UHGV virus genome: UHGV-1341913
From: a virus
DNA: 27,453 nt
Direction: 5' to 3' (one strand)
Shown here: positions 2,868-27,453 of the stretch, in pieces
How positions within the stretch are numbered: position 1 is the stretch's first letter
Layout of the letters: every line of letters starts with the position of its first letter
Notes under the pieces: model-generated
Database searches by the model: none
What the model was told of the DNA's origin: nothing
The model's input: the letters and a program-made list of their open reading frames with translations, nothing else
Made by a program: the position numbers and the translations under genes

Positions 2868-2928
2868 TTTATTGGAGATTCACTGCCTTAGTGTGAGCTA
2901 AAATCGAGGAGCCGTCGAACTGTCTGAT

Positions 2929-2956
2929 TAATGATTTGCGAATCATTATAGTTTTT
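2929..2956 (+). terminator. possible intrinsic terminator after rIII (AT-rich hairpin plus T-run)
   Basis: Perfect 8-bp stem TAATGATT / AATCATTA with loop TGCG (2929..2948), followed by TTTTT at 2952..2956. The stem is AT-rich, so stability is modest. Confidence 0.3.
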
Positions 2957-3266
2957 AAGACCCCGGCAGTTTTACGGTGTACCTCTTGAATGTTATTCTT
3001 ATAGCGGCAAGTGCATGCTACCCCGAGGTGATGGCCAATCGGGAGTACGCCTCAAGGCCTATATATCCATCAGTATATATCTTATCCTCGAGAAATCGAA
3101 CCCGGAACCTTTAAGCTAACGGTGTGCAACAGATAAGAGCTATAAGGTATGTTGACGAGGTTTATGGTTATCCTGTCGGTAAATATTCAAAACCTAAGTA
3201 CCCCCTTGAGGGCTTTCGCAGGCAATGCCAATAAGTCCTGCATTTTCATTTAAAAGAGAATTTATA

Positions 3267-4648: not shown

Positions 4649-4845
4649 TGAAATTCTTTTTAGGTCAAACTGTTGAATTAAAGGGAGTTGGTATACCTGG
4701 ATTAATTTCTAAGGTTCTACCTCCATTTAAATGGAGTGGTATTCAAATAAAAGAGGCTTATATTGTTTCCTGGGTAGATGGAAATGAAGACCTTCGTATG
4801 GGCGATGAATTATCTCCTATTTACGGATTAAAGGAATTAGTATGA
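4648..4845 (+). CDS. hypothetical early protein (30.5 position)
   Basis: 65-aa ORF, start overlaps upstream stop (TAATG). Confidence 0.5.
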   Translation: MKFFLGQTVELKGVGIPGLISKVLPPFKWSGIQIKEAYIVSWVDGNEDLRMGDELSPIYGLKELV

Positions 4846-5048
4846 ATATAATTAATAAGATTTTTGGAATTCAGTATATTAAGGTCACATATAAAGTAAC
4901 AGATAAAAATCCATATACTGATGAACATGAAGAACCACAAGTTGAGTCTATTATATTAGAAAAGGACCCTAACTGGCCAGTTGAATTTCGTCTTCCTTGC
5001 TATGGTCATTGGGCTGATGTTGAAATTATAAGTATTGAAAATGTCTGA
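4842..5048 (+). CDS. hypothetical early protein (30.4 position)
   Basis: 68-aa ORF with ATGA overlap to the upstream ORF. Confidence 0.5.
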   Translation: MNIINKIFGIQYIKVTYKVTDKNPYTDEHEEPQVESIILEKDPNWPVEFRLPCYGHWADVEIISIENV

Positions 5049-8295: not shown

Positions 8296-10392
8296 ATGAT
8301 GGAACTCATTACAGAATTATTTGACGAAGATACTACTCTTCCGATTACAAACTTAAATCCAAAGAAGAAAATACCGCAAATTTTTTCAGTTCATGTTGAT
8401 GACGCAATTGAACAACCAGGCTTTCGTTTGTGTACCTATACATCTGGAGGTGATACTAATCGCGATTTAAAGATGGGCGATAAAATGATGCATATTGTTC
8501 CTTTTACATTAACTGCTAAAGGTTCAATTGCTAAATTAAAAGGTCTCGGTCCAAGCCCAATTAATTACATCAATTCAGTTTTTACTGTTGCAATGCAAAC
8601 GATGCGTCAGTATAAAATTGATGCCTGTATGCTCCGTATTCTTAAGTCTAAAACTGCTGGTCAAGCTCGTCAAATTCAACTTATTGCTGATAGACTTATC
8701 CGCAGTCGTTCAGGTGGCAGATACGTCCTTCTTAAGGAACTCTGGGATTACGATAAAAAGTACGCATATATTCTTATACATCGCAAAAATGTATCATTAG
8801 AAGACATTCCAGGAGTTCCGGAAATTAGTACAGAGCTCTTTACTAAAGTTGAATCGAAGGTCGGCGATGTTTATATCAATAAAGATACCGGAGCTCAAGT
8901 AACTAAAAATGAGGCCATTGCAGCATCTATTGCGCAAGAAAACGATAAACGTTCTGACCAAGCTGTAATCGTTAAAGTTAAAATTTCCCGTAGAGCAATT
9001 GCACAAAGTCAATCATTAGAATCTTCTAGATTTGAAAGTGAATTATTCCAGAAGTATGAATCTACCGCAGCTAATTTCAATAAACCTGCTACCGCTCCTT
9101 TAATTCCCGAAGCAGAAGAAATGAAACTTGGAATTAATTCATTAGCTTCTAAAACCAAGGCAGCAAAAATTATTGCCGAAGGAACCGCAAATGAACTTCA
9201 TTATGATTATAAATTCTTTTCAAAAAGTGAGGTTGATGAAGTTTCTGAAAAGATTAAAGATGTAATTCTTAATGCGATTAAAAATGAACCAACTACTTCA
9301 ATAAAATGTTTAGAGAAATACGCAGCAGCTGTTAATCAATTCTTTGAAGAATATAAAGATAATTGGCTTGATAAACACAATAAAACTCGTAAAGGACAGA
9401 CAGATGAAGTCTGGGAAGAAATAACTAAAAATTCCTGGAACGCAGCAAAAACTAAATTCCTCAAAAGAATGATTTATAGCTTTTCTGGAATTGGTGCAGG
9501 TCCAATGATTGATATTACTATTGCCCGCGATGGTTCTAAATATACTCCATCACAAAAGCGCGGCATTAGAGAGTATTGTGGTTCAGGATATACTGACATC
9601 AATAATCTTCTTTTAGGACGCTACAATCCAGAACGATATGATGTAATGAGTGAAAAAGAAATTGAATCTGCGATAAATAATTTAGATTCAGCCTTTGAAA
9701 ATGGTGACCGTATACCAGAAGGCATTACAGTTTATCGTGCTCAAAGCATGACTGCTCCTATATACGAAGCACTAGTTAAAAATAAAGTGTTCTATTTCAG
9801 AAATTTTGTATCTACTTCTTTAACTCCTATCATTTTTGGACGTTTTGGAATTACGCATGCTGGTATTGGTCTTTTAGAACCAGAAGCTCGTAATGAATTG
9901 ACAGTTGATAAAAATGAAGAAGGAATAACTATTAATTCAAACGAAATAAGAGCGTATAAAGAAAATCCCGAATACGTTAAAGTTCAAATAGGATGGGCAA
10001 TTGATGGAGCTCATAAAGTTAATGTTGTATATCCAGGAAGCCTCGGAATAGCAACAGAAGCTGAAGTTATTCTACCACGCGGATTGATGGTCAAAGTTAA
10101 TAAAATAACTGATGCTTCTAATAATGACGGAACAACATCTAATAATACAAAACTCATTCAAGCTGAAGTTATGACTACGGAAGAACTCACTGAATCAGTA
10201 ATTTATGACGGTGACCGTCTAATGGAAACTGGTGAAGTAGTTGCAATGACAGGTGATATTGAAATAGAAGACAGAGTTGACTTTGCATCATTTGTTTCAT
10301 CAAATGTTAAACAAAAAGTAGAATCATCTCTTGGAATTATTGCATCTTGCATAGATATTGCAAGCATGCCTTACAAGTTCATTCAAGGATAA
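8296..10392 (+). CDS. alt: ADP-ribosyltransferase Alt (virion-packaged; modifies host RNA polymerase)
   Basis: 698-aa ORF (an alternative start at 8299 gives MELITELF, the T4 Alt N-terminus as I recall it). C-terminal region carries the R-S-E class ART motifs: YRAQ, FVSTSL, EAEVILPRG. RBS agagagga. Confidence 0.88.
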   Translation: MMELITELFDEDTTLPITNLNPKKKIPQIFSVHVDDAIEQPGFRLCTYTSGGDTNRDLKMGDKMMHIVPFTLTAKGSIAKLKGLGPSPINYINSVFTVAMQTMRQYKIDACMLRILKSKTAGQARQIQLIADRLIRSRSGGRYVLLKELWDYDKKYAYILIHRKNVSLEDIPGVPEISTELFTKVESKVGDVYINKDTGAQVTKNEAIAASIAQENDKRSDQAVIVKVKISRRAIAQSQSLESSRFESELFQKYESTAANFNKPATAPLIPEAEEMKLGINSLASKTKAAKIIAEGTANELHYDYKFFSKSEVDEVSEKIKDVILNAIKNEPTTSIKCLEKYAAAVNQFFEEYKDNWLDKHNKTRKGQTDEVWEEITKNSWNAAKTKFLKRMIYSFSGIGAGPMIDITIARDGSKYTPSQKRGIREYCGSGYTDINNLLLGRYNPERYDVMSEKEIESAINNLDSAFENGDRIPEGITVYRAQSMTAPIYEALVKNKVFYFRNFVSTSLTPIIFGRFGITHAGIGLLEPEARNELTVDKNEEGITINSNEIRAYKENPEYVKVQIGWAIDGAHKVNVVYPGSLGIATEAEVILPRGLMVKVNKITDASNNDGTTSNNTKLIQAEVMTTEELTESVIYDGDRLMETGEVVAMTGDIEIEDRVDFASFVSSNVKQKVESSLGIIASCIDIASMPYKFIQG

Positions 10393-10395
10393 ATC

Positions 10396-12453
10396 ATGGA
10401 ACTTATTACAGAATTATTTGACGGCGCTTCGGCGCCGGTTGTTAACTTAAATCCTAAGCATAAAATACCTCAAATTTTTGCTATTCAAGCCGGTGAAGAA
10501 AGCGTGCTTCCTGGATTTAGATTTTGTACATACACCTCCGGTGGTGATACAAATAAAAACGTTAAGCCAGGCGATAAAATGATGCATATCGTAATGATAG
10601 GTGTCAATGAGAAACTATCATTAGTTAAACTTAAAAACTTGGGTGGAAATCCAATTGGTGTCATTAATGCGGTTTTTGATACTGCTCTTCAAACAATGAA
10701 ACAGTATAAAATTGACGCATGCCTATTCCGCGTACTAAAAAGTAAAACAAATGGCGCTGCTCGTCAGATGCAAGTTATTGCTGACCGTTTAGTACGTACT
10801 AAAGGAGCAGGTCGATATGTTCTTTTAAAGGAAATCTGGGATTACGATAAAAAGTATGCATATATTATGGTTTACCGTAAAAATGCCAATTTAGAAGACA
10901 TTCCAGGTGTACCTCCTATTTCAACTGAGTTATTCACAAAAGTTGAATCAAAGGTTGGTGATGTTTATGTAGATGTTAAAACAGGTAATGCTGTTCCTAA
11001 AGCTGTTGCTGTTGCTGCTTCTATTGCTTTAGAAAATGATAAGCGCACGGATCAAGCTGTTATTCAGAAAACTAAAATTAGTCGTCGATTAGCAGCACAA
11101 GCTCAATATTCTACTGTCGATGCTTCGCTACAGGGTGATAGCTTCGCTGCCAAGAAATATCAAGAGTTTGAATCTAAAGTTCCGGTATATAAAGCAGAAG
11201 GACCAATGAACTCTGGCGTTATTCAGATTGGTTCCAACTTCAGCAAAGGAGCTATCGGTGGTATGAGAAGTGCTTCTCGTTTTAAATCTAACGATTATGA
11301 ACTAGAAAGCTTCCGAAATCATATTGCATTGGCCCATGCACGTTTACGTGATCCGTCTATCAGACTGCAGAGCGATATAACACATCAAGGTTCTCAAGAA
11401 TATTTAAAGAATAAAGAATTTTTTGATTATAAAACCGATAAAATTTTGAGCGATCTCGCTGACATTAATATTTCTAATAGCTTTGATGTTATTAAGAAAA
11501 TTATCAATGATTTAGTTAAAGGTTCTAAAGCCACACCAGACGAAAAGGTAGCTATTATTCAATTTGTCATGAATGGCATTTATAAATTGATTAATGAATC
11601 TGCTGCTCAGGCATATGAATATGCAAGCACCGAAGTAACTCCAAAAGGACTGACTCAGGCTGAGTCTGATGTAATTGAAGATTATTGTGCAGATTCATAT
11701 GTTGAAATGAACTCGTTCCTCTTGGGTAAACCAGATTCTACCCGTGAAGAATACATGGAACGAGCTATTAAACACATCGAGACGCTGGATTCTGCATTCG
11801 CCAAAGGATCAGTTCTTCCTCCAGGAACTACGCTTTATCGTGGGCAAGAAGTTACTTTTAAAACTTTACGTCATAATATTGAAAATAAAATGTTCTATTT
11901 CAAGAACTTCGTATCCACGTCGCTTAAACCAAATATCTTCGGTGAGCATGGTAAAAACTATATGGCTCTAGATGATTCCGGCGCAGTATTTTCTGGTGAA
12001 GGAGAAGGTTCTGTTGATGCTGAAGATTTAATGCATATGGGTAGTCATTCTGCATATGCTAATGAAGATGCTGAAGCTAGCGTAGGTATGGTAATTAAAG
12101 GGGCTGAGCGAATCAAAGTTATCGTTCCAGGTCATTTATCAGGATTTCCATCAGAAGCTGAAGTTATTCTACCGCGTGGAATTTTGTTGAAGATTAATAA
12201 AGTAAGCACGTACATGATGAAAGAAACTGCCTATAACAAGTATCTAATCGAAGGCACAATCGTTCCTCCTTCTGAACAATTAGAAGAATCGGTATATGAT
12301 GGCGATCATCTAATGGAAACTGGTGAAGTTCGTCCAATGGCTGGGTTTAATCAATTCCTTGTAGAAGAATCAAAAGAAGAGGAAACTGAAGTTTCTCAAA
12401 TCTTGGCTTCTTTGGTTAACATCAACGGAATGTCTAAAAAGTTCAAGATGTAG
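10396..12453 (+). CDS. Alt-like ADP-ribosyltransferase paralog (intact second copy)
   Basis: 685-aa ORF starting 3 nt after the alt stop. The N-terminal ~230 aa are clearly homologous to Alt (MELITELFDG..., KIPQIF, GFRFCTYTSGGDTN, KQYKIDAC, GRYVLLKE, WDYDKKYAYI). ART motifs retained: YRGQ, FVSTSL, EAEVILPRG. Confidence 0.8.
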   Translation: MELITELFDGASAPVVNLNPKHKIPQIFAIQAGEESVLPGFRFCTYTSGGDTNKNVKPGDKMMHIVMIGVNEKLSLVKLKNLGGNPIGVINAVFDTALQTMKQYKIDACLFRVLKSKTNGAARQMQVIADRLVRTKGAGRYVLLKEIWDYDKKYAYIMVYRKNANLEDIPGVPPISTELFTKVESKVGDVYVDVKTGNAVPKAVAVAASIALENDKRTDQAVIQKTKISRRLAAQAQYSTVDASLQGDSFAAKKYQEFESKVPVYKAEGPMNSGVIQIGSNFSKGAIGGMRSASRFKSNDYELESFRNHIALAHARLRDPSIRLQSDITHQGSQEYLKNKEFFDYKTDKILSDLADINISNSFDVIKKIINDLVKGSKATPDEKVAIIQFVMNGIYKLINESAAQAYEYASTEVTPKGLTQAESDVIEDYCADSYVEMNSFLLGKPDSTREEYMERAIKHIETLDSAFAKGSVLPPGTTLYRGQEVTFKTLRHNIENKMFYFKNFVSTSLKPNIFGEHGKNYMALDDSGAVFSGEGEGSVDAEDLMHMGSHSAYANEDAEASVGMVIKGAERIKVIVPGHLSGFPSEAEVILPRGILLKINKVSTYMMKETAYNKYLIEGTIVPPSEQLEESVYDGDHLMETGEVRPMAGFNQFLVEESKEEETEVSQILASLVNINGMSKKFKM
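10422..10437 (+). other. GC-only UUCG-tetraloop hairpin embedded in the coding sequence
   Basis: CGGCGC-TTCG-GCGCCG, a perfect 6-bp G/C stem, lies 26-41 nt downstream of the paralog ATG and encodes G-A-S-A-P. The first alt copy has unrelated sequence at the equivalent position. Confidence 0.5.
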
Positions 12454-21344: not shown

Positions 21345-21360
21345 AAGGGCCGAAGCCCTT
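21345..21360 (-). other. UUCG-tetraloop hairpin at the uvsW / uvsW.1 junction
   Basis: Minus-strand AAGGGC-TTCG-GCCCTT overlaps the uvsW stop codon and sits just upstream of the uvsW.1 RBS. Confidence 0.5.
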
Positions 21361-22870
21361 ATAAATTAACTGTTTTCATTACGTAATTAAATTTTTCATC
21401 TGCGTAGCGCTGAATACGATCAATGCCGTGTTTTAAAAGATAGTTCAAATGAACGTATTTCTTTTTCGTATTAGCAGATTTTGGCTTAACACCGCAATCA
21501 TCTATGAGGTCCCAGACTGTTGCGATTGTTTTAGAACCATGTTTACGTAATACGCGACCTATTGTTTGCAATACAATAATTTTAGATTTAACACCGTGTG
21601 CTAAAACAACGTGATGCAGATTTTTAACTGAAATACCAGTAGAAAATACACCATAACTAGCTACTATAATTATTCCTTTACCGTTTTCAGCTAAGGTTTT
21701 CATTACATTGCGGGTTTCGGTATCAACTTCCCCTGATACGTAATAAACTTTATCGTATTCATTTTTAATTAAATCGAAAATAGCTTTACCGTGCGATACG
21801 TGTTTAAACATTACAAAAGCATTTTCATCTTTTTGCGCAAGCTTAATAGCTAATTTAGCGATCCATTTATTTCTTTTACTGAGCCCAGTAATAATTTTTA
21901 TTTCTTCTTGGTAAGTTTTTCCCTTTAATTTAGTAGTGAACTCATCGGGATAGCGAAGAAAAATACTATTAATTTTTAACTCAGTTACTTGTCCATCTTC
22001 CATTAATTTAGAGGTCGTTACTGGCTTAAATATTTCACCGAACATTCCAACATACTGCATGATATTAGCTTTGCCATCGCGCAATGAACCAGACAAACCA
22101 AATTTAAACATACAGTTATTTAAACCTGATATGATAGATGAAATACTTTTTCCTGTAGCAAGATGACATTCATCATTCATCATCATTCCAAACTGTGAGA
22201 ACCATTCTTTTGGTTGTTTTACTACAGTTTGCCATGTACCAACAACGACTGGTGCATCATTTTTATATTTATCATCTTTTGATGCTCCACCGCCGATTTT
22301 CTTTATCATTGCATGACTGAATAAACGATAGTCAACAAAGTCATCAGCCATCTGAGTTGTCAGAGCAGTTGTTGGAACAATGATAAGAATTTTGCCTTCA
22401 TAATTTTCCAAATAATACCGAGCAAGCAAAGCTTGAATTAAAGATTTACCTGCGGATGTTGGAAGATTAAGAATTCTACGACGATTAACTAATCCTTCGA
22501 ACACTGCATCTTTTTGATACCAATGCGGTTCAATTCTTTTATTTCCTGAATAGATTTCTAATTTAGAAAGCCATTCATCAAAATCTTTTCTTGATAATTC
22601 TTCTTTTTCGTTAATTTGCGGGTCAATCCAGACTTTATAGCCAAAGTTATCACAGAACTTTTTAATTTGCCCGACTAAACCGAATGGAAGAAGGCGATTA
22701 TAATCTAAAAGACGAATTCGTCCATCCCAGTGACCATATTTGTACTTCGGATTAAAACGATACCCATCAGCTTCAAAGCTAAAGAAATCACGGAGTTCAT
22801 GAAATGTACTTTCTTCACAATCAATTCTCACGTGACTAAAATCATAAAAATGTACTTTAATGTCAGTCAT
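21359..22870 (-). CDS. uvsW: UvsW RNA-DNA and DNA-DNA helicase (SF2)
   Basis: 503-aa ORF with Walker A-like LPTSAGKS and a DExH-like box MMMNDECH. Position and length match T4 UvsW. Confidence 0.9.
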   Translation of the reverse strand: MTDIKVHFYDFSHVRIDCEESTFHELRDFFSFEADGYRFNPKYKYGHWDGRIRLLDYNRLLPFGLVGQIKKFCDNFGYKVWIDPQINEKEELSRKDFDEWLSKLEIYSGNKRIEPHWYQKDAVFEGLVNRRRILNLPTSAGKSLIQALLARYYLENYEGKILIIVPTTALTTQMADDFVDYRLFSHAMIKKIGGGASKDDKYKNDAPVVVGTWQTVVKQPKEWFSQFGMMMNDECHLATGKSISSIISGLNNCMFKFGLSGSLRDGKANIMQYVGMFGEIFKPVTTSKLMEDGQVTELKINSIFLRYPDEFTTKLKGKTYQEEIKIITGLSKRNKWIAKLAIKLAQKDENAFVMFKHVSHGKAIFDLIKNEYDKVYYVSGEVDTETRNVMKTLAENGKGIIIVASYGVFSTGISVKNLHHVVLAHGVKSKIIVLQTIGRVLRKHGSKTIATVWDLIDDCGVKPKSANTKKKYVHLNYLLKHGIDRIQRYADEKFNYVMKTVNL

Positions 22871-23610: not shown

Positions 23611-25035
23611 ATGACTTTTACAGTTGATATAACTCCTAAAACCCCAACAGGAGTTATTGATGAAACCAAGCAGTTTACTGCTACACCCAGTGGTCAAACT
23701 GAAGGTGGAACTATTACCTATGCTTGGAGTGTAGATAATGTTCCACAGGATGGAGATGAAGCAACTTTTAGCTATGTACTAAAAGGACCTGCAGGTCAAA
23801 AGACTATTAAAGTAGTTGCAACAAATACAGTTCCAGAATCTGAAGCTGAACCTGAAACAGCAGAAACTACGACAACTATCACAGTTCAAAATAAGACACA
23901 AACAACTACTTTAGCTGTAACTCCTGGTAGCCCTGATGCTGGAGTGATTGGAACTCCAATTGAATTTACCGCTGCCTTAGCTTCTCAACCTGATGGGGCA
24001 TCTGCTACGTATCAGTGGTATGTAGATGATTCTCAAATTGGTGAAGCGACTTCTGCTACATTTAGCTATACTCCAACTGCAAGTGGAGTAAAAAGAATTA
24101 AATGCGTAGCGCAAGTAACAGCAACAGATTATGACGCAAAAACAGTTACTTCTAATGAAGTATCATTAACAGTTAATAAGAAAACACAGACAACTACGTT
24201 AGCCGTAACTCCTGCTAATCCTGCTGCCGGAGTAATTGGAACCCCAGTTCAATTTACTGCTGCCTTGGATTCACAGCCACCAGGAGCGTCTGCTACGTAT
24301 CAGTGGTATGTTGACGGTTCTCTGGTCGATGGAGAAACTACTACTACATTTAACTATACTCCTACCACAGTTGGAGCTAAAACAGTTAAGTGTGTAGCCC
24401 AAGTAACTGCAGAAAATTACAATGAAAAGGAAGTTACTTCTAATGAAGTATCATTGACAGTTAATAAGAAGACAATGAATCCACAGGTTACATTGACTCC
24501 TCCTTCTATTAACGTTCAGCAAGATGCTTCGGCTACATTTACGGCTAATGTTACTGGAGCACCTGAAGCAGCACAAATTACTTATTCATGGAAGAAAGAT
24601 TCTTCTCCTGTAGAAGGGTCAACTAACGTATACACCGTTGACACCTCATCTATTGGAAGTCAAACTATTGAAGTTACTGCTGTCGTTACAGCAACTGACT
24701 ATGATAGTAAAACAGTTAAAGCGACTGGTCAAGTTCAGGTAACTGATAAAGTTGCTCCGGAACCAGAAGGTGAATTGCCTTATGTTCATCCTCTTCCACA
24801 TCGTACTTCGGCTTATATCTGGTGCGGTTGGTGGGTTATGGATGAAATCCAAAAAATGACCGAAGAAGGTAAAGATTGGAAAACTGAAGATCCAGATAGT
24901 AAATACTACCTGCATCGTTACACTCTTCAGAAGATGATGAAAGACTATCCAGAAGTTGATGTTCAAGAATCACGCAATGGATACATCATTCATAAAACTG
25001 CTTTAGAAACTGGTATCATCTATACCTATCCATAA
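23611..25035 (+). CDS. hoc: Hoc, highly immunogenic outer capsid protein (Ig-like domain decoration protein)
   Basis: 474-aa ORF made of tandem Ig-like modules plus the C-terminal capsid-binding region (YVHPLPHRTSAYIWCGWWVMDE...). It is about 98 aa longer than the 376-aa T4 Hoc I recall, through an internal domain duplication. Confidence 0.88.
   Translation: MTFTVDITPKTPTGVIDETKQFTATPSGQTEGGTITYAWSVDNVPQDGDEATFSYVLKGPAGQKTIKVVATNTVPESEAEPETAETTTTITVQNKTQTTTLAVTPGSPDAGVIGTPIEFTAALASQPDGASATYQWYVDDSQIGEATSATFSYTPTASGVKRIKCVAQVTATDYDAKTVTSNEVSLTVNKKTQTTTLAVTPANPAAGVIGTPVQFTAALDSQPPGASATYQWYVDGSLVDGETTTTFNYTPTTVGAKTVKCVAQVTAENYNEKEVTSNEVSLTVNKKTMNPQVTLTPPSINVQQDASATFTANVTGAPEAAQITYSWKKDSSPVEGSTNVYTVDTSSIGSQTIEVTAVVTATDYDSKTVKATGQVQVTDKVAPEPEGELPYVHPLPHRTSAYIWCGWWVMDEIQKMTEEGKDWKTEDPDSKYYLHRYTLQKMMKDYPEVDVQESRNGYIIHKTALETGIIYTYP
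23890..24462 (+). repeat. tandem duplication of a ~95-aa Ig-like domain inside hoc (unit A 23890..24174, unit B 24175..24462)
   Basis: Both units read NK(K)TQTTTLAVTP..GVIGTP..FTAAL.SQP.GASATYQWYVD...TF.YTPT..G.K..KCVAQVTA..Y..K.VTSNEVSLTVNKKT. Identical nucleotide stretches include tctgctacgtatcagtggtatgt and gttacttctaatgaagtatcatt. Confidence 0.8.
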
Positions 25036-26628: not shown

Positions 26629-26649
26629 AAAGGGACCTTCGGTCCCTTT
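26629..26649. terminator. bidirectional terminator hairpin between convergent rnlB and gene 24
   Basis: AAAGGGACC-TTC-GGTCCCTTT, flanked by A-run and T-run on either side. Confidence 0.65.
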
Positions 26650-26652
26650 GTT

Positions 26653-27453
26653 TTATTCATCAATGATAATTTTTGGTAACTTAACACCTAATAAAACAGA
26701 CAAATCTGAACGACCCGCCATTTTATCCATGTCTCCACCATCAATTACTCTTGCTTCTTTTTCATCTTTTGCTACAGTGTAAGGATTTGCAGATAAAGCA
26801 TATCTAACTAATAAACCGATAGATGGCTGCAAACTTTCTGGATCAACTACAACTTTAAATGCACCTACATGTTCAGGGTCATCTAAGTCAAGACCTTCTG
26901 TATACGGAGCATAGAAAATTGATCCAACAATTTCTTTTTCACCAATATTTTCTACTACGCCAACGATTACATAATCTAATGGACTGTTGGTATCGCAATA
27001 AAGCGGTAAACCATTAGCTAAGAACCCGTAGGCATTTTGTGAAAGATATTTGTCATCTTCTGGTTTATGTTTTAACCAACCTGATGCAGCAAGAATCGCA
27101 GCGGCACGAGCTGAAGCAACACAGAACGTTGCTGTATAAGTTGATTCTTTCTGAATATGTGAAACCATTTCACACACCATTCGGTATAATGAACGACCAG
27201 CTTCAGGTGCAGATGCATAACTCAAATCAATGAATCCAGTATCAGTAATTCCTGTAACTTTATAGCGTTTTGATACTGTAATCAAAGACTGTAGAATATC
27301 TTTATTGATTTCATCCGCCATTTCAGTTGCAAGCAAATCTTCCAAGAAATTAGGAGCATCGAATCCATTTGCTTCTAAATCTTGGAAGATTTGCTTGCAA
27401 CTCAAATCAATGAATCCAGTATCAGTAATTCCTGTAACTTTATAGCGTTTTGA
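26653..27453 (-). CDS. 24: head vertex protein gp24 (gp23 paralog), 3' portion; 5' end lies beyond the window
   Basis: Minus-strand frame is open to the window edge and ends at a TAA stop (plus-strand TTA at 26653..26655). C-terminal sequence ...GDMDKMAGRSDLSVLLGVKLPKIIIDE is consistent with gp24, downstream of rnlB as in T4. The ORF-track start at 27405 is a TTG inside the gene. Confidence 0.8.
   Translation of the reverse strand, partial: SKRYKVTGITDTGFIDLSCKQIFQDLEANGFDAPNFLEDLLATEMADEINKDILQSLITVSKRYKVTGITDTGFIDLSYASAPEAGRSLYRMVCEMVSHIQKESTYTATFCVASARAAAILAASGWLKHKPEDDKYLSQNAYGFLANGLPLYCDTNSPLDYVIVGVVENIGEKEIVGSIFYAPYTEGLDLDDPEHVGAFKVVVDPESLQPSIGLLVRYALSANPYTVAKDEKEARVIDGGDMDKMAGRSDLSVLLGVKLPKIIIDE
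27219..27453. repeat. exact 55-bp direct repeat (27219..27273 and 27399..27453) ending at the window edge
   Basis: aactcaaatcaatgaatccagtatcagtaattcctgtaactttatagcgttttga occurs twice, 180 bp apart and in frame within gene 24. The second copy terminates exactly at the last base of the window. Confidence 0.85.

What the first reader, a model, noticed from the sequence alone, without database searches (positions are those of the whole stretch)
27219..27453. Exact 55-bp in-frame direct repeat in gene 24 terminating at the window edge: probable assembly artefact
A 55-nt sequence occurs at 27219..27273 and again at 27399..27453, 180 bp apart, and the second copy ends on the last base of the window. 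Read on the minus strand, this duplicates the peptide SKRYKVTGITDTGFIDLS within the head vertex protein. Perfect nucleotide-level duplication inside an essential capsid gene is unlikely to be natural. A 55-bp exact repeat at a sequence terminus is the typical signature of a de Bruijn-graph contig end with k = 55. If instead it is real, it would be an unusual in-frame 60-residue duplication in gp24.
Basis: partly seen in the sequence, partly recalled or inferred. Interest (0 to 1): 0.4.

Follow-up and report, generated by a model that had tools for sequence, protein, structure and literature searches.

The report
Chimeric contig end in gene 24
The last 69 bases of this T4-like phage contig are most likely not phage genome: they are a fold-back chimera that re-enters the capsid vertex gene 180 bases upstream, and the contig stops after exactly one 55-base assembler k-mer, so the "duplication" is almost certainly an assembly artefact.

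Summary
An exact 55-nt repeat lies at 27219-27273 and 27399-27453, 180 nt apart, and the second copy ends on the last base. It sits in the antisense strand of gene 24 (capsid vertex protein) of a Tequatrovirus.

It is not a plain duplication. The window is identical to reference gene 24 only up to 27384. The next 14 nt (27385-27398) are the exact reverse complement of 27329-27342. The sequence then re-enters gene 24 at 27219. The departure point is the 3' end of a native quasi-palindromic hairpin (27343-27384). Short microhomologies (TCTTG, AACT) mark both switches.

This is a two-step template-switch chimera. The repeat is 55 nt only because the contig stops there. A toy k=55 de Bruijn graph containing one such chimeric molecule reproduces the window end base for base.

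No relative has the junction: 607 GenBank phages, three contig collections, and 120 gp24 clusters of 417-432 aa. If real, the insert would duplicate the HK97-fold spine helix of an essential protein.

Reads were not available, so a genuine, mostly minority, in vivo rearrangement is not excluded. Low interest.

The parts
26653..27384 (-). Genuine 3' part of gene 24 (capsid vertex protein gp24), codons 185-427 plus stop. Collinear with reference phages.
   Evidence: 100% identical to phage Killian OQ446694 gene 24 up to 27384. Residue mapping. PDB 1YUE match.
27219..27273 (.). Copy 1 of the 55-nt repeat: native gene 24 sequence (codons 222-240). It would be the re-entry vertex of the assembly graph.
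   Evidence: Present once, at this place, in reference gene 24.
27343..27384 (.). Native quasi-palindromic hairpin in gene 24: CAAGA-AA-TTAGGAGCA-(11 nt loop)-TGCTTCTAA-A-TCTTG, stems of 5 and 9 bp. Its 3' end is exactly the point where the window leaves the reference.
   Evidence: The fold of the reference sequence shows this hairpin. The first mismatch to the reference is at 27385.
27325..27347 (.). Native gene 24 sequence that served as template for the inverted piece.
   Evidence: the repeat finder pair I1. The 14-mer GAAGATTTGCTTGC is found on the minus strand at 27329-27342.
27380..27402 (.). Inverted arm, the exact reverse complement of 27325-27347 (23 nt). 27380-27384 (TCTTG) is microhomology shared with the native sequence. 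27385-27398 are the only 14 bases foreign to this position. 27399-27402 (AACT) is microhomology shared with the re-entry site.
   Evidence: It lengthens the native hairpin to a 23-bp perfect stem: DNA fold -32.8 kcal/mol, z = -9.5, against -10.8 and z = -1.3 for the reference.
27399..27453 (.). Copy 2 of the 55-nt repeat: re-entry into gene 24 at 27219. It is cut after exactly 55 nt by the end of the sequence, which makes it the terminal k-mer vertex of the contig.

Best explanation
The last 69 bases (27385-27453) most likely do not represent the dominant phage genome. They are the trace of a chimeric DNA molecule or read, built into a k=55 de Bruijn graph as a false edge.

How the chimera formed (inferred):
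- A strand whose 3' end lay at 27384 snapped back on the native hairpin 27343-27384.
- A polymerase extended it on its own or the sister strand, copying 27342 down to about 27325 as reverse complement.
- After 18 nt the nascent end switched again at AACT, onto the original template 166 nt upstream (27219-27222), and carried on along gene 24.

What the assembler did (inferred):
- In a k=55 graph this molecule adds an edge that leaves the true path at the vertex 27330-27384.
- That edge rejoins the true path at the first shared 55-mer, 27219-27273.
- The contig path ran along this edge and stopped at the already visited vertex. It therefore ends with a second copy of exactly that 55-mer.
- The true continuation of gene 24 (codons 1-184) was either a clipped tip or went to another contig.

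Shown: the anatomy, the breakpoints, the absence of the junction from relatives, and that a k=55 graph is sufficient to give this ending. Inferred: that the molecule was rare or made in vitro, and which assembler was used.
For: - The window is identical to reference gene 24 up to 27384 and unrelated to it afterwards.
- 27385-27398 is the exact reverse complement of 27329-27342. About 1.5e-6 such matches are expected by chance within 200 nt either side.
- Breakpoint 1 coincides with the 3' end of a native 5+9 bp hairpin. Microhomologies of 5 nt and 4 nt sit at the two switches.
- The repeat begins at the first re-entry base (27398 differs from 27218) and ends on the last base after exactly 55 nt. 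In a toy k=55 graph of true sequence plus one chimeric molecule, the junction edge equals 27330-27453, and path X+loop equals the end of the window.
- A 55-bp overlap of contig ends is reported for a metaSPAdes assembly graph (PMC8851603). That 55 is the default largest k of SPAdes and metaSPAdes for short reads is from my own knowledge.
- None of 607 related phage records matches contiguously across the junction; the best give two separate pieces.
- The junction 38-mer is absent from IMG/VR, JGI metagenome contigs and GTDB genomes.
- Ten contigs encoding an identical RnlB all have a 427-aa gp24. The 120 best gp24 clusters, down to 55% identity, are 417-432 aa when full length, and none covers the junction.
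- Artefactual chimeric reads made by annealing at short reverse-complementary stretches and fill-in during end repair, giving adjacent repeats or inverted repeats, are documented (PMC8458033).
Against: - No reads, coverage data or assembly graph are available, and the source contig could not be found. The rarity of the junction is therefore inferred, not shown.
- The junction is in frame and free of stop codons. A viable variant would require that, whereas an artefact achieves it only about one time in three or four.
- It is not explained why the assembler followed the chimeric edge rather than the true continuation. Gene 24 shows no variable hotspot just past 27384 in eight relatives.
- Two switches within 18 nt is more complex than the usual single fold-back artefact.
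Confidence: 0.85

Rival explanations
1. The junction is real DNA made in vivo but carried by a minority of molecules. A replication or recombination template-switch event (quasi-palindrome-primed, four-point type) occurred during T4-type recombination-dependent replication. It was sampled by deep sequencing and kept by the assembler. The contig end is still not the consensus genome.
For: The anatomy fits the four-point template-switch model: point 1 = 27384, 2 = 27342, 3 = 27325, 4 = 27219-27223. Point 4 precedes point 1, a class said to appear as an insertion (PMC7954356). Initiation is at a pre-existing imperfect inverted repeat. Quasi-palindrome template switching was first noted partly in the T4 rIIB gene (PMC7202029). 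Both donor sites lie within 170 nt, which argues for a local polymerase event rather than random ligation.
Against: The same anatomy is produced in vitro by snap-back priming and polymerase fill-in or PCR. Nothing in the sequence tells the two apart. There is no independent occurrence in any collection.
Confidence: 0.1
2. The phage really carries a fixed 180-bp in-frame insertion in gene 24, giving a 487-aa gp24 with Q185-S239 duplicated plus the linker CKQIF. The contig ends there only because the assembler could not resolve the 180-nt loop.
For: The junction is in frame and has no stop codon. A true short tandem duplication also forms a cycle in a de Bruijn graph.
Against: - gp24 length is 417-432 aa in the 120 best clusters down to 55% identity, and 427 aa in all close relatives. 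No record has the junction.
- The duplicated block contains the short P-domain helix region and the whole spine helix of the HK97 fold. gp23 spine-helix residues 292, 306 and 307 align to gp24 200, 214 and 215. Duplicating the spine helix should wreck the fold of an essential vertex protein; this step is inference.
- A 180-nt loop at twofold coverage is normally resolved by paired reads and the contig would continue. That is my own knowledge of assembler behaviour and was not tested.
- The repeat length equals a standard k rather than any biological unit.
Confidence: 0.04
3. The repeat is the end-overlap signature of a circular or terminally redundant molecule (a direct terminal repeat).
For: Assemblers do leave a k-mer overlap at the two ends of circular contigs.
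Against: The last 55 nt match an internal site 180 nt upstream, not the start of the window. The window is a 27-kb piece of a roughly 167-kb Tequatrovirus genome, collinear with Killian.
Confidence: 0.01

Closest known systems
k-mer overlap at de Bruijn graph contig ends (SPAdes/metaSPAdes, largest k = 55)
   Same: The repeat is exactly 55 nt and exact. It ends on the last base and starts at the first base shared with an already traversed vertex. A toy k=55 graph reproduces it. A 55-bp end overlap is reported for a metaSPAdes graph.
   Different: The overlap is with an internal vertex 180 nt upstream (a terminal loop or 'lollipop'), not with the other contig end as in circular contigs. The assembler and its k are not known for this window.
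Artefact chimeric reads formed at short reverse-complementary stretches during library preparation (snap-back or strand annealing followed by polymerase fill-in)
   Same: Inversion junction between sites 37 nt apart. Short reverse-complementary stretch at the breakpoint (TCTTG/CAAGA, reinforced by a 9-bp stem). Produces adjacent repeats or inverted repeats (PMC8458033).
   Different: Here a second switch, back to the original orientation, follows after only 18 nt. Nothing is known about the sample type or library method.
Quasi-palindrome-associated template-switch mutations (Ripley 1982) and the four-point short template-switch model
   Same: A pre-existing imperfect inverted repeat becomes a longer perfect one. 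There is a short reverse-complement tract between two switch points, with microhomology at both.
   Different: The return point lies 166 nt upstream of the departure point, so the outcome is a 180-nt duplication-like insertion rather than a small mutation cluster. Occurrence in vivo is not shown.
Multiple displacement amplification chimeras (Lasken and Stockwell 2007; from my own knowledge, paper not read here)
   Same: Mostly inverted junctions between nearby sites, joined at a few bases of complementarity.
   Different: There is no evidence that the sample was amplified in this way.

Membership tests
de Bruijn graph contig-end k-mer artefact | The repeat ends exactly at the sequence terminus. 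| tested here: met
   The second copy ends at 27453, the last base.
de Bruijn graph contig-end k-mer artefact | The repeat length equals an assembler k and is set by the terminus, not by the biology. | tested here: met
   Exactly 55 nt. The left limit is fixed by the junction (27218 T against 27398 C) and the right limit by the end of the sequence. A k=55 toy graph gives the junction edge 27330-27453.
de Bruijn graph contig-end k-mer artefact | The terminal path is not found in related genomes. | tested here: met
   No contiguous match across 27385-27398 in 607 to 997 phage records. The junction 38-mer is absent from three contig collections.
de Bruijn graph contig-end k-mer artefact | The window end is a contig end, the assembler used k=55, and the junction has low read support. 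| not testable with these tools
   The source contig was not found. No reads or graph are available.
Genuine tandem duplication | The end of the unit is joined directly to the start of the unit (head to tail), and a second full copy is present. | tested here: not met
   14 nt of inverted sequence sit at the junction. Only 55 of the 166 nt of a second copy are present before the sequence ends.
Genuine tandem duplication | The reading frame is kept in an essential gene. | tested here: met
   The 180-nt period equals 60 codons with no stop. This is weak evidence: an artefact meets it about one time in three.
Genuine tandem duplication | Precedent among homologues (length variants at this site). 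| tested here: not met
   Full-length gp24 homologues are 417-432 aa and none covers the junction. All close relatives have 427 aa.
Template-switch (four-point / quasi-palindrome) junction | A tract that is the reverse complement of nearby sequence lies between two collinear fragments. | tested here: met
   27380-27402 = rc(27325-27347), flanked by collinear sequence up to 27384 and collinear re-entry from 27219.
Template-switch (four-point / quasi-palindrome) junction | A pre-existing imperfect inverted repeat at the initiation site, and microhomology at the switch points. | tested here: met
   Native hairpin 27343-27384 ends at the breakpoint. Microhomologies are TCTTG (5 nt) and AACT (4 nt, or 8 of 9 if extended).
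Template-switch (four-point / quasi-palindrome) junction | The event occurred in vivo, so it is a heritable mutation. | not testable with these tools
   Needs reads, PCR, or an independent isolate.
Circular or terminally repeated contig signature | The first k bases equal the last k bases. | tested here: not met
   The window starts GAAAAATGTTATT..., with no match to the terminal 55-mer.

The most novel reading that the evidence does not exclude
The junction is a genuine in vivo product of quasi-palindrome-primed double template switching during T4-type replication. In the strongest version it is fixed in a viable phage whose vertex protein gp24 carries a 60-residue insertion duplicating the HK97-fold spine helix (487 aa instead of 427).
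Probability: 0.04. Interest if true: 0.45.

Novelty: not a real feature. Interest (0 to 1): 0.08.

Why it matters
The value is mainly practical. The last 69 bases should be trimmed before annotation, otherwise a false gp24 variant or 'duplication' enters databases. The case is a clear worked example of a recognisable pattern: a contig that ends with an exact k-length copy of an internal site, preceded by a short inverted tract anchored at a native hairpin. That pattern could be screened for automatically at contig ends. If the junction were real and fixed, it would show surprising tolerance of an essential HK97-fold capsid protein to duplication of its spine helix, but the evidence points away from this.

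Tried and rejected
- Searching for the source contig, to confirm the contig end and obtain coverage. Exact-protein look-ups with RnlB (found only in other, longer contigs, all with a 427-aa gp24), Hoc (17), the truncated gp24 product (18), an Alt paralogue (39) and gp29 (40) gave nothing.
- The junction 38-mer gave 0 hits in viral, metagenome and genome contig collections (10, 14, 15). There was no match in the plasmid or E. coli genome collections (19, 20).
- No GenBank phage is closer than about 98.5% over the window (41), so there is no finished version of the same phage to compare with.
- Strain mixture as the reason for the break: eight relatives show no variable site within 90 nt beyond 27384, so this is not supported.
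- Circular or direct-terminal-repeat signature: rejected.
- The 14 foreign bases as a variant allele or foreign insert: rejected, because they are the exact reverse complement of sequence 43-56 nt upstream.
- Random blunt-end ligation for the second junction: unlikely, because both partners lie within 170 nt of a roughly 167-kb genome and share AACT. This is inference.
- An RNA element: no Rfam hit in the window.

Full report
**Observation**

The window ends with AACTCAAATCAATGAATCCAGTATCAGTAATTCCTGTAACTTTATAGCGTTTTGA at 27399-27453. The same 55 nt occur at 27219-27273, 180 nt upstream. About 3e-25 such exact repeats are expected by chance in 27 kb. On the minus strand both copies read SKRYKVTGITDTGFIDLS, in one open frame.

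**Context**

The window is a 27-kb piece of a Tequatrovirus (T4-like) genome.
- It is collinear with Escherichia phage Killian at about 98% identity. It runs from the dCMP deaminase/rIII side through DNA ligase, two alt paralogues, baseplate genes, uvsY, uvsW, inh, hoc and rnlB into gene 24.
- No GenBank phage is closer than about 98.5% overall.
- Gene 24 lies on the minus strand, with its stop codon at 26653-26655. It follows a bidirectional terminator hairpin at 26629-26649.
- From 26640 to 27384 the window is 100% identical to Killian and to Tequatrovirus LF73P3.
- The encoded protein is gp24: PDB 1YUE at E=1e-278, Pfam PF07068 in the homologues.

**What is really at the end**

An ungapped comparison with the reference shows perfect identity up to 27384 and no similarity afterwards. 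The terminal 69 nt have two parts:
- **27385-27398 (GAAGATTTGCTTGC).** This is the exact reverse complement of 27329-27342 (about 1.5e-6 expected by chance within 200 nt either side). With the flanking shared bases, the inverted arm is 27380-27402 = rc(27325-27347), 23 nt perfect (pair I1).
- **27399-27453.** This re-enters gene 24 in the original orientation at 27219.

The two switches overlap by TCTTG (27380-27384) and AACT (27399-27402). The site the inverted copy would have continued into (AACTGAAAT) resembles the re-entry site (AACTCAAAT) in 8 of 9 bases.

This is not a head-to-tail tandem duplication. It is forward sequence, an 18-nt fold-back, then a jump 166 nt upstream.

**Why it happened there**

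The native gene contains a quasi-palindrome, CAAGA-AA-TTAGGAGCA-(11 nt)-TGCTTCTAA-A-TCTTG, at 27343-27384. It appears in the minimum-energy fold of the reference sequence. Its 3' end is exactly the departure point. A strand ending at 27384 can therefore snap back and prime on itself or on the sister strand. Extension gives precisely the observed inverted bases.

In the window the stem is thereby lengthened to 23 perfect pairs: -32.8 kcal/mol, z = -9.5, against -10.8 and z = -1.3 for the native sequence.

The layout fits the mechanism-agnostic four-point template-switch model, with point 1 = 27384, 2 = 27342, 3 = 27325 and 4 = 27219-27223. Point 4 precedes point 1, a class reported to look like an insertion (PMC7954356).

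Two processes produce the same layout:
- In vitro, artefact chimeric reads form by annealing at short reverse-complementary stretches followed by polymerase fill-in. They yield adjacent repeats or inverted repeats (PMC8458033).
- In vivo, quasi-palindrome template switching does the same. It was first noted partly in T4 rIIB (PMC7202029).

The sequence alone cannot tell them apart.

**Why the repeat is 55 nt**

- The copy cannot extend to the left (27218 T against 27398 C). To the right it is cut by the end of the sequence.
- In a de Bruijn graph with 55-mer vertices, a chimeric molecule of this structure adds an edge. The edge leaves the true path at vertex 27330-27384 and rejoins it at the first shared 55-mer, 27219-27273.
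- An edge is written out including its end vertex, so it ends with a second copy of exactly that 55-mer.
- I built such a graph from the local true sequence plus one chimeric molecule. The junction edge equals window 27330-27453. With the true continuation missing or clipped, the path 'incoming edge plus loop' equals the window end base for base.
- A 55-bp overlap at contig ends is reported for a metaSPAdes graph (PMC8851603). That 55 is the default largest k of SPAdes and metaSPAdes for short reads is my own knowledge.
- The odd window length, and the repeat finishing on the very last base, indicate that the window end is a contig end.

**Is it found anywhere else?**

No.
- All 607 related phage records match the last 814 nt in two separate pieces. 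With a 124-nt query and sensitive settings, the best records again give two pieces covering 89%, never the 14 foreign bases.
- The 38-mer across both junctions has no exact match in IMG/VR, the JGI metagenome contigs or the GTDB genomes.
- Ten contigs encoding an identical RnlB all carry a 427-aa gp24.
- In the large protein collection, the 120 best gp24 clusters, down to 55% identity, are 417-432 aa apart from two fragments. Nearly all align to about 91-92% of the query, which is the genuine part; the few with higher coverage are ordinary 417-429-aa proteins at 55-60% identity.

**If it were real**

Completing the loop would give a 487-aa gp24 with Q185-S239 duplicated and five new residues, CKQIF.
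[quoted passage not shown] They align to gp24 200, 214 and 215.
- The block would therefore duplicate the whole spine helix of the HK97 fold in an essential vertex protein. That this would be destructive is inference, not a test.
- The only point in favour of a viable variant is that the junction is in frame and has no stop. An artefact achieves that about one time in three or four.

**What remains open**

- I could not find the source contig or any reads.
- I cannot say why the assembler followed the chimeric edge instead of the true continuation. Relatives show no variable site within 90 nt beyond 27384 that would suggest a strain bubble. A local coverage gap with tip clipping would explain it (scenario B), but this is conjecture.
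- I cannot say whether the chimeric molecule arose in the tube or in the infected cell.

**Verdict**

| Reading | Confidence |
|---|---|
| Artefactual chimeric contig terminus ending in the assembler's k-mer | about 0.85 |
| Real but minority in vivo rearrangement | about 0.10 |
| Fixed insertion in gp24 | about 0.04 |
| Circular or terminally repeated contig signature | about 0.01 |

Bases 27385-27453 should be trimmed. Interest is low.

Noticed in passing
window 27343-27384: Native gene 24 carries a conserved quasi-palindromic hairpin (5-bp and 9-bp stems, 11-nt loop) inside the coding sequence for the region just before the spine helix. It is the apparent initiation site of the fold-back chimera, and could be a recurrent site of library or replication template switching in T4-like phages.
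   Followed up: partly
window 23611-25035 (hoc); tandem repeat 23881-24474: The hoc gene contains a 288-nt tandem repeat, 2.1 copies at 78% identity (Ig-like domain units). In contigs that share an identical RnlB, the Hoc product ranges from 376 to 568 aa (one relative has a split gene), so domain number is polymorphic among very close relatives. The window's 474-aa ORF is not on record as an exact protein.
   Followed up: partly
window 8296-10392 and 10396-12453: Two adjacent alt-like ADP-ribosyltransferase paralogues (698 and 685 aa) share short, nearly identical stretches of 20-39 nt at equivalent positions. Relatives annotate both as Alt-like.
   Followed up: no
window ~21374-21376 (next to uvsW, 21359-22870 minus): The window lacks the roughly 0.7-kb homing-endonuclease ORF that phage Killian carries between uvsW and the small downstream helicase ORF. 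The alignment jumps from Killian locus L002 position 9117 to 8430.
   Followed up: no
window 2868-3142 and 4655-5003: Two short segments do not align with Killian at megablast level, although the flanks are 96-98% identical. These look like mosaic replacements among small early genes.
   Followed up: no
window 26629-26649: A perfect 9-bp GC-rich hairpin flanked by T runs on both strands lies between the convergent genes rnlB and 24. It is a bidirectional intrinsic terminator, annotated as 'terminator (x2)' in some relatives.
   Followed up: partly
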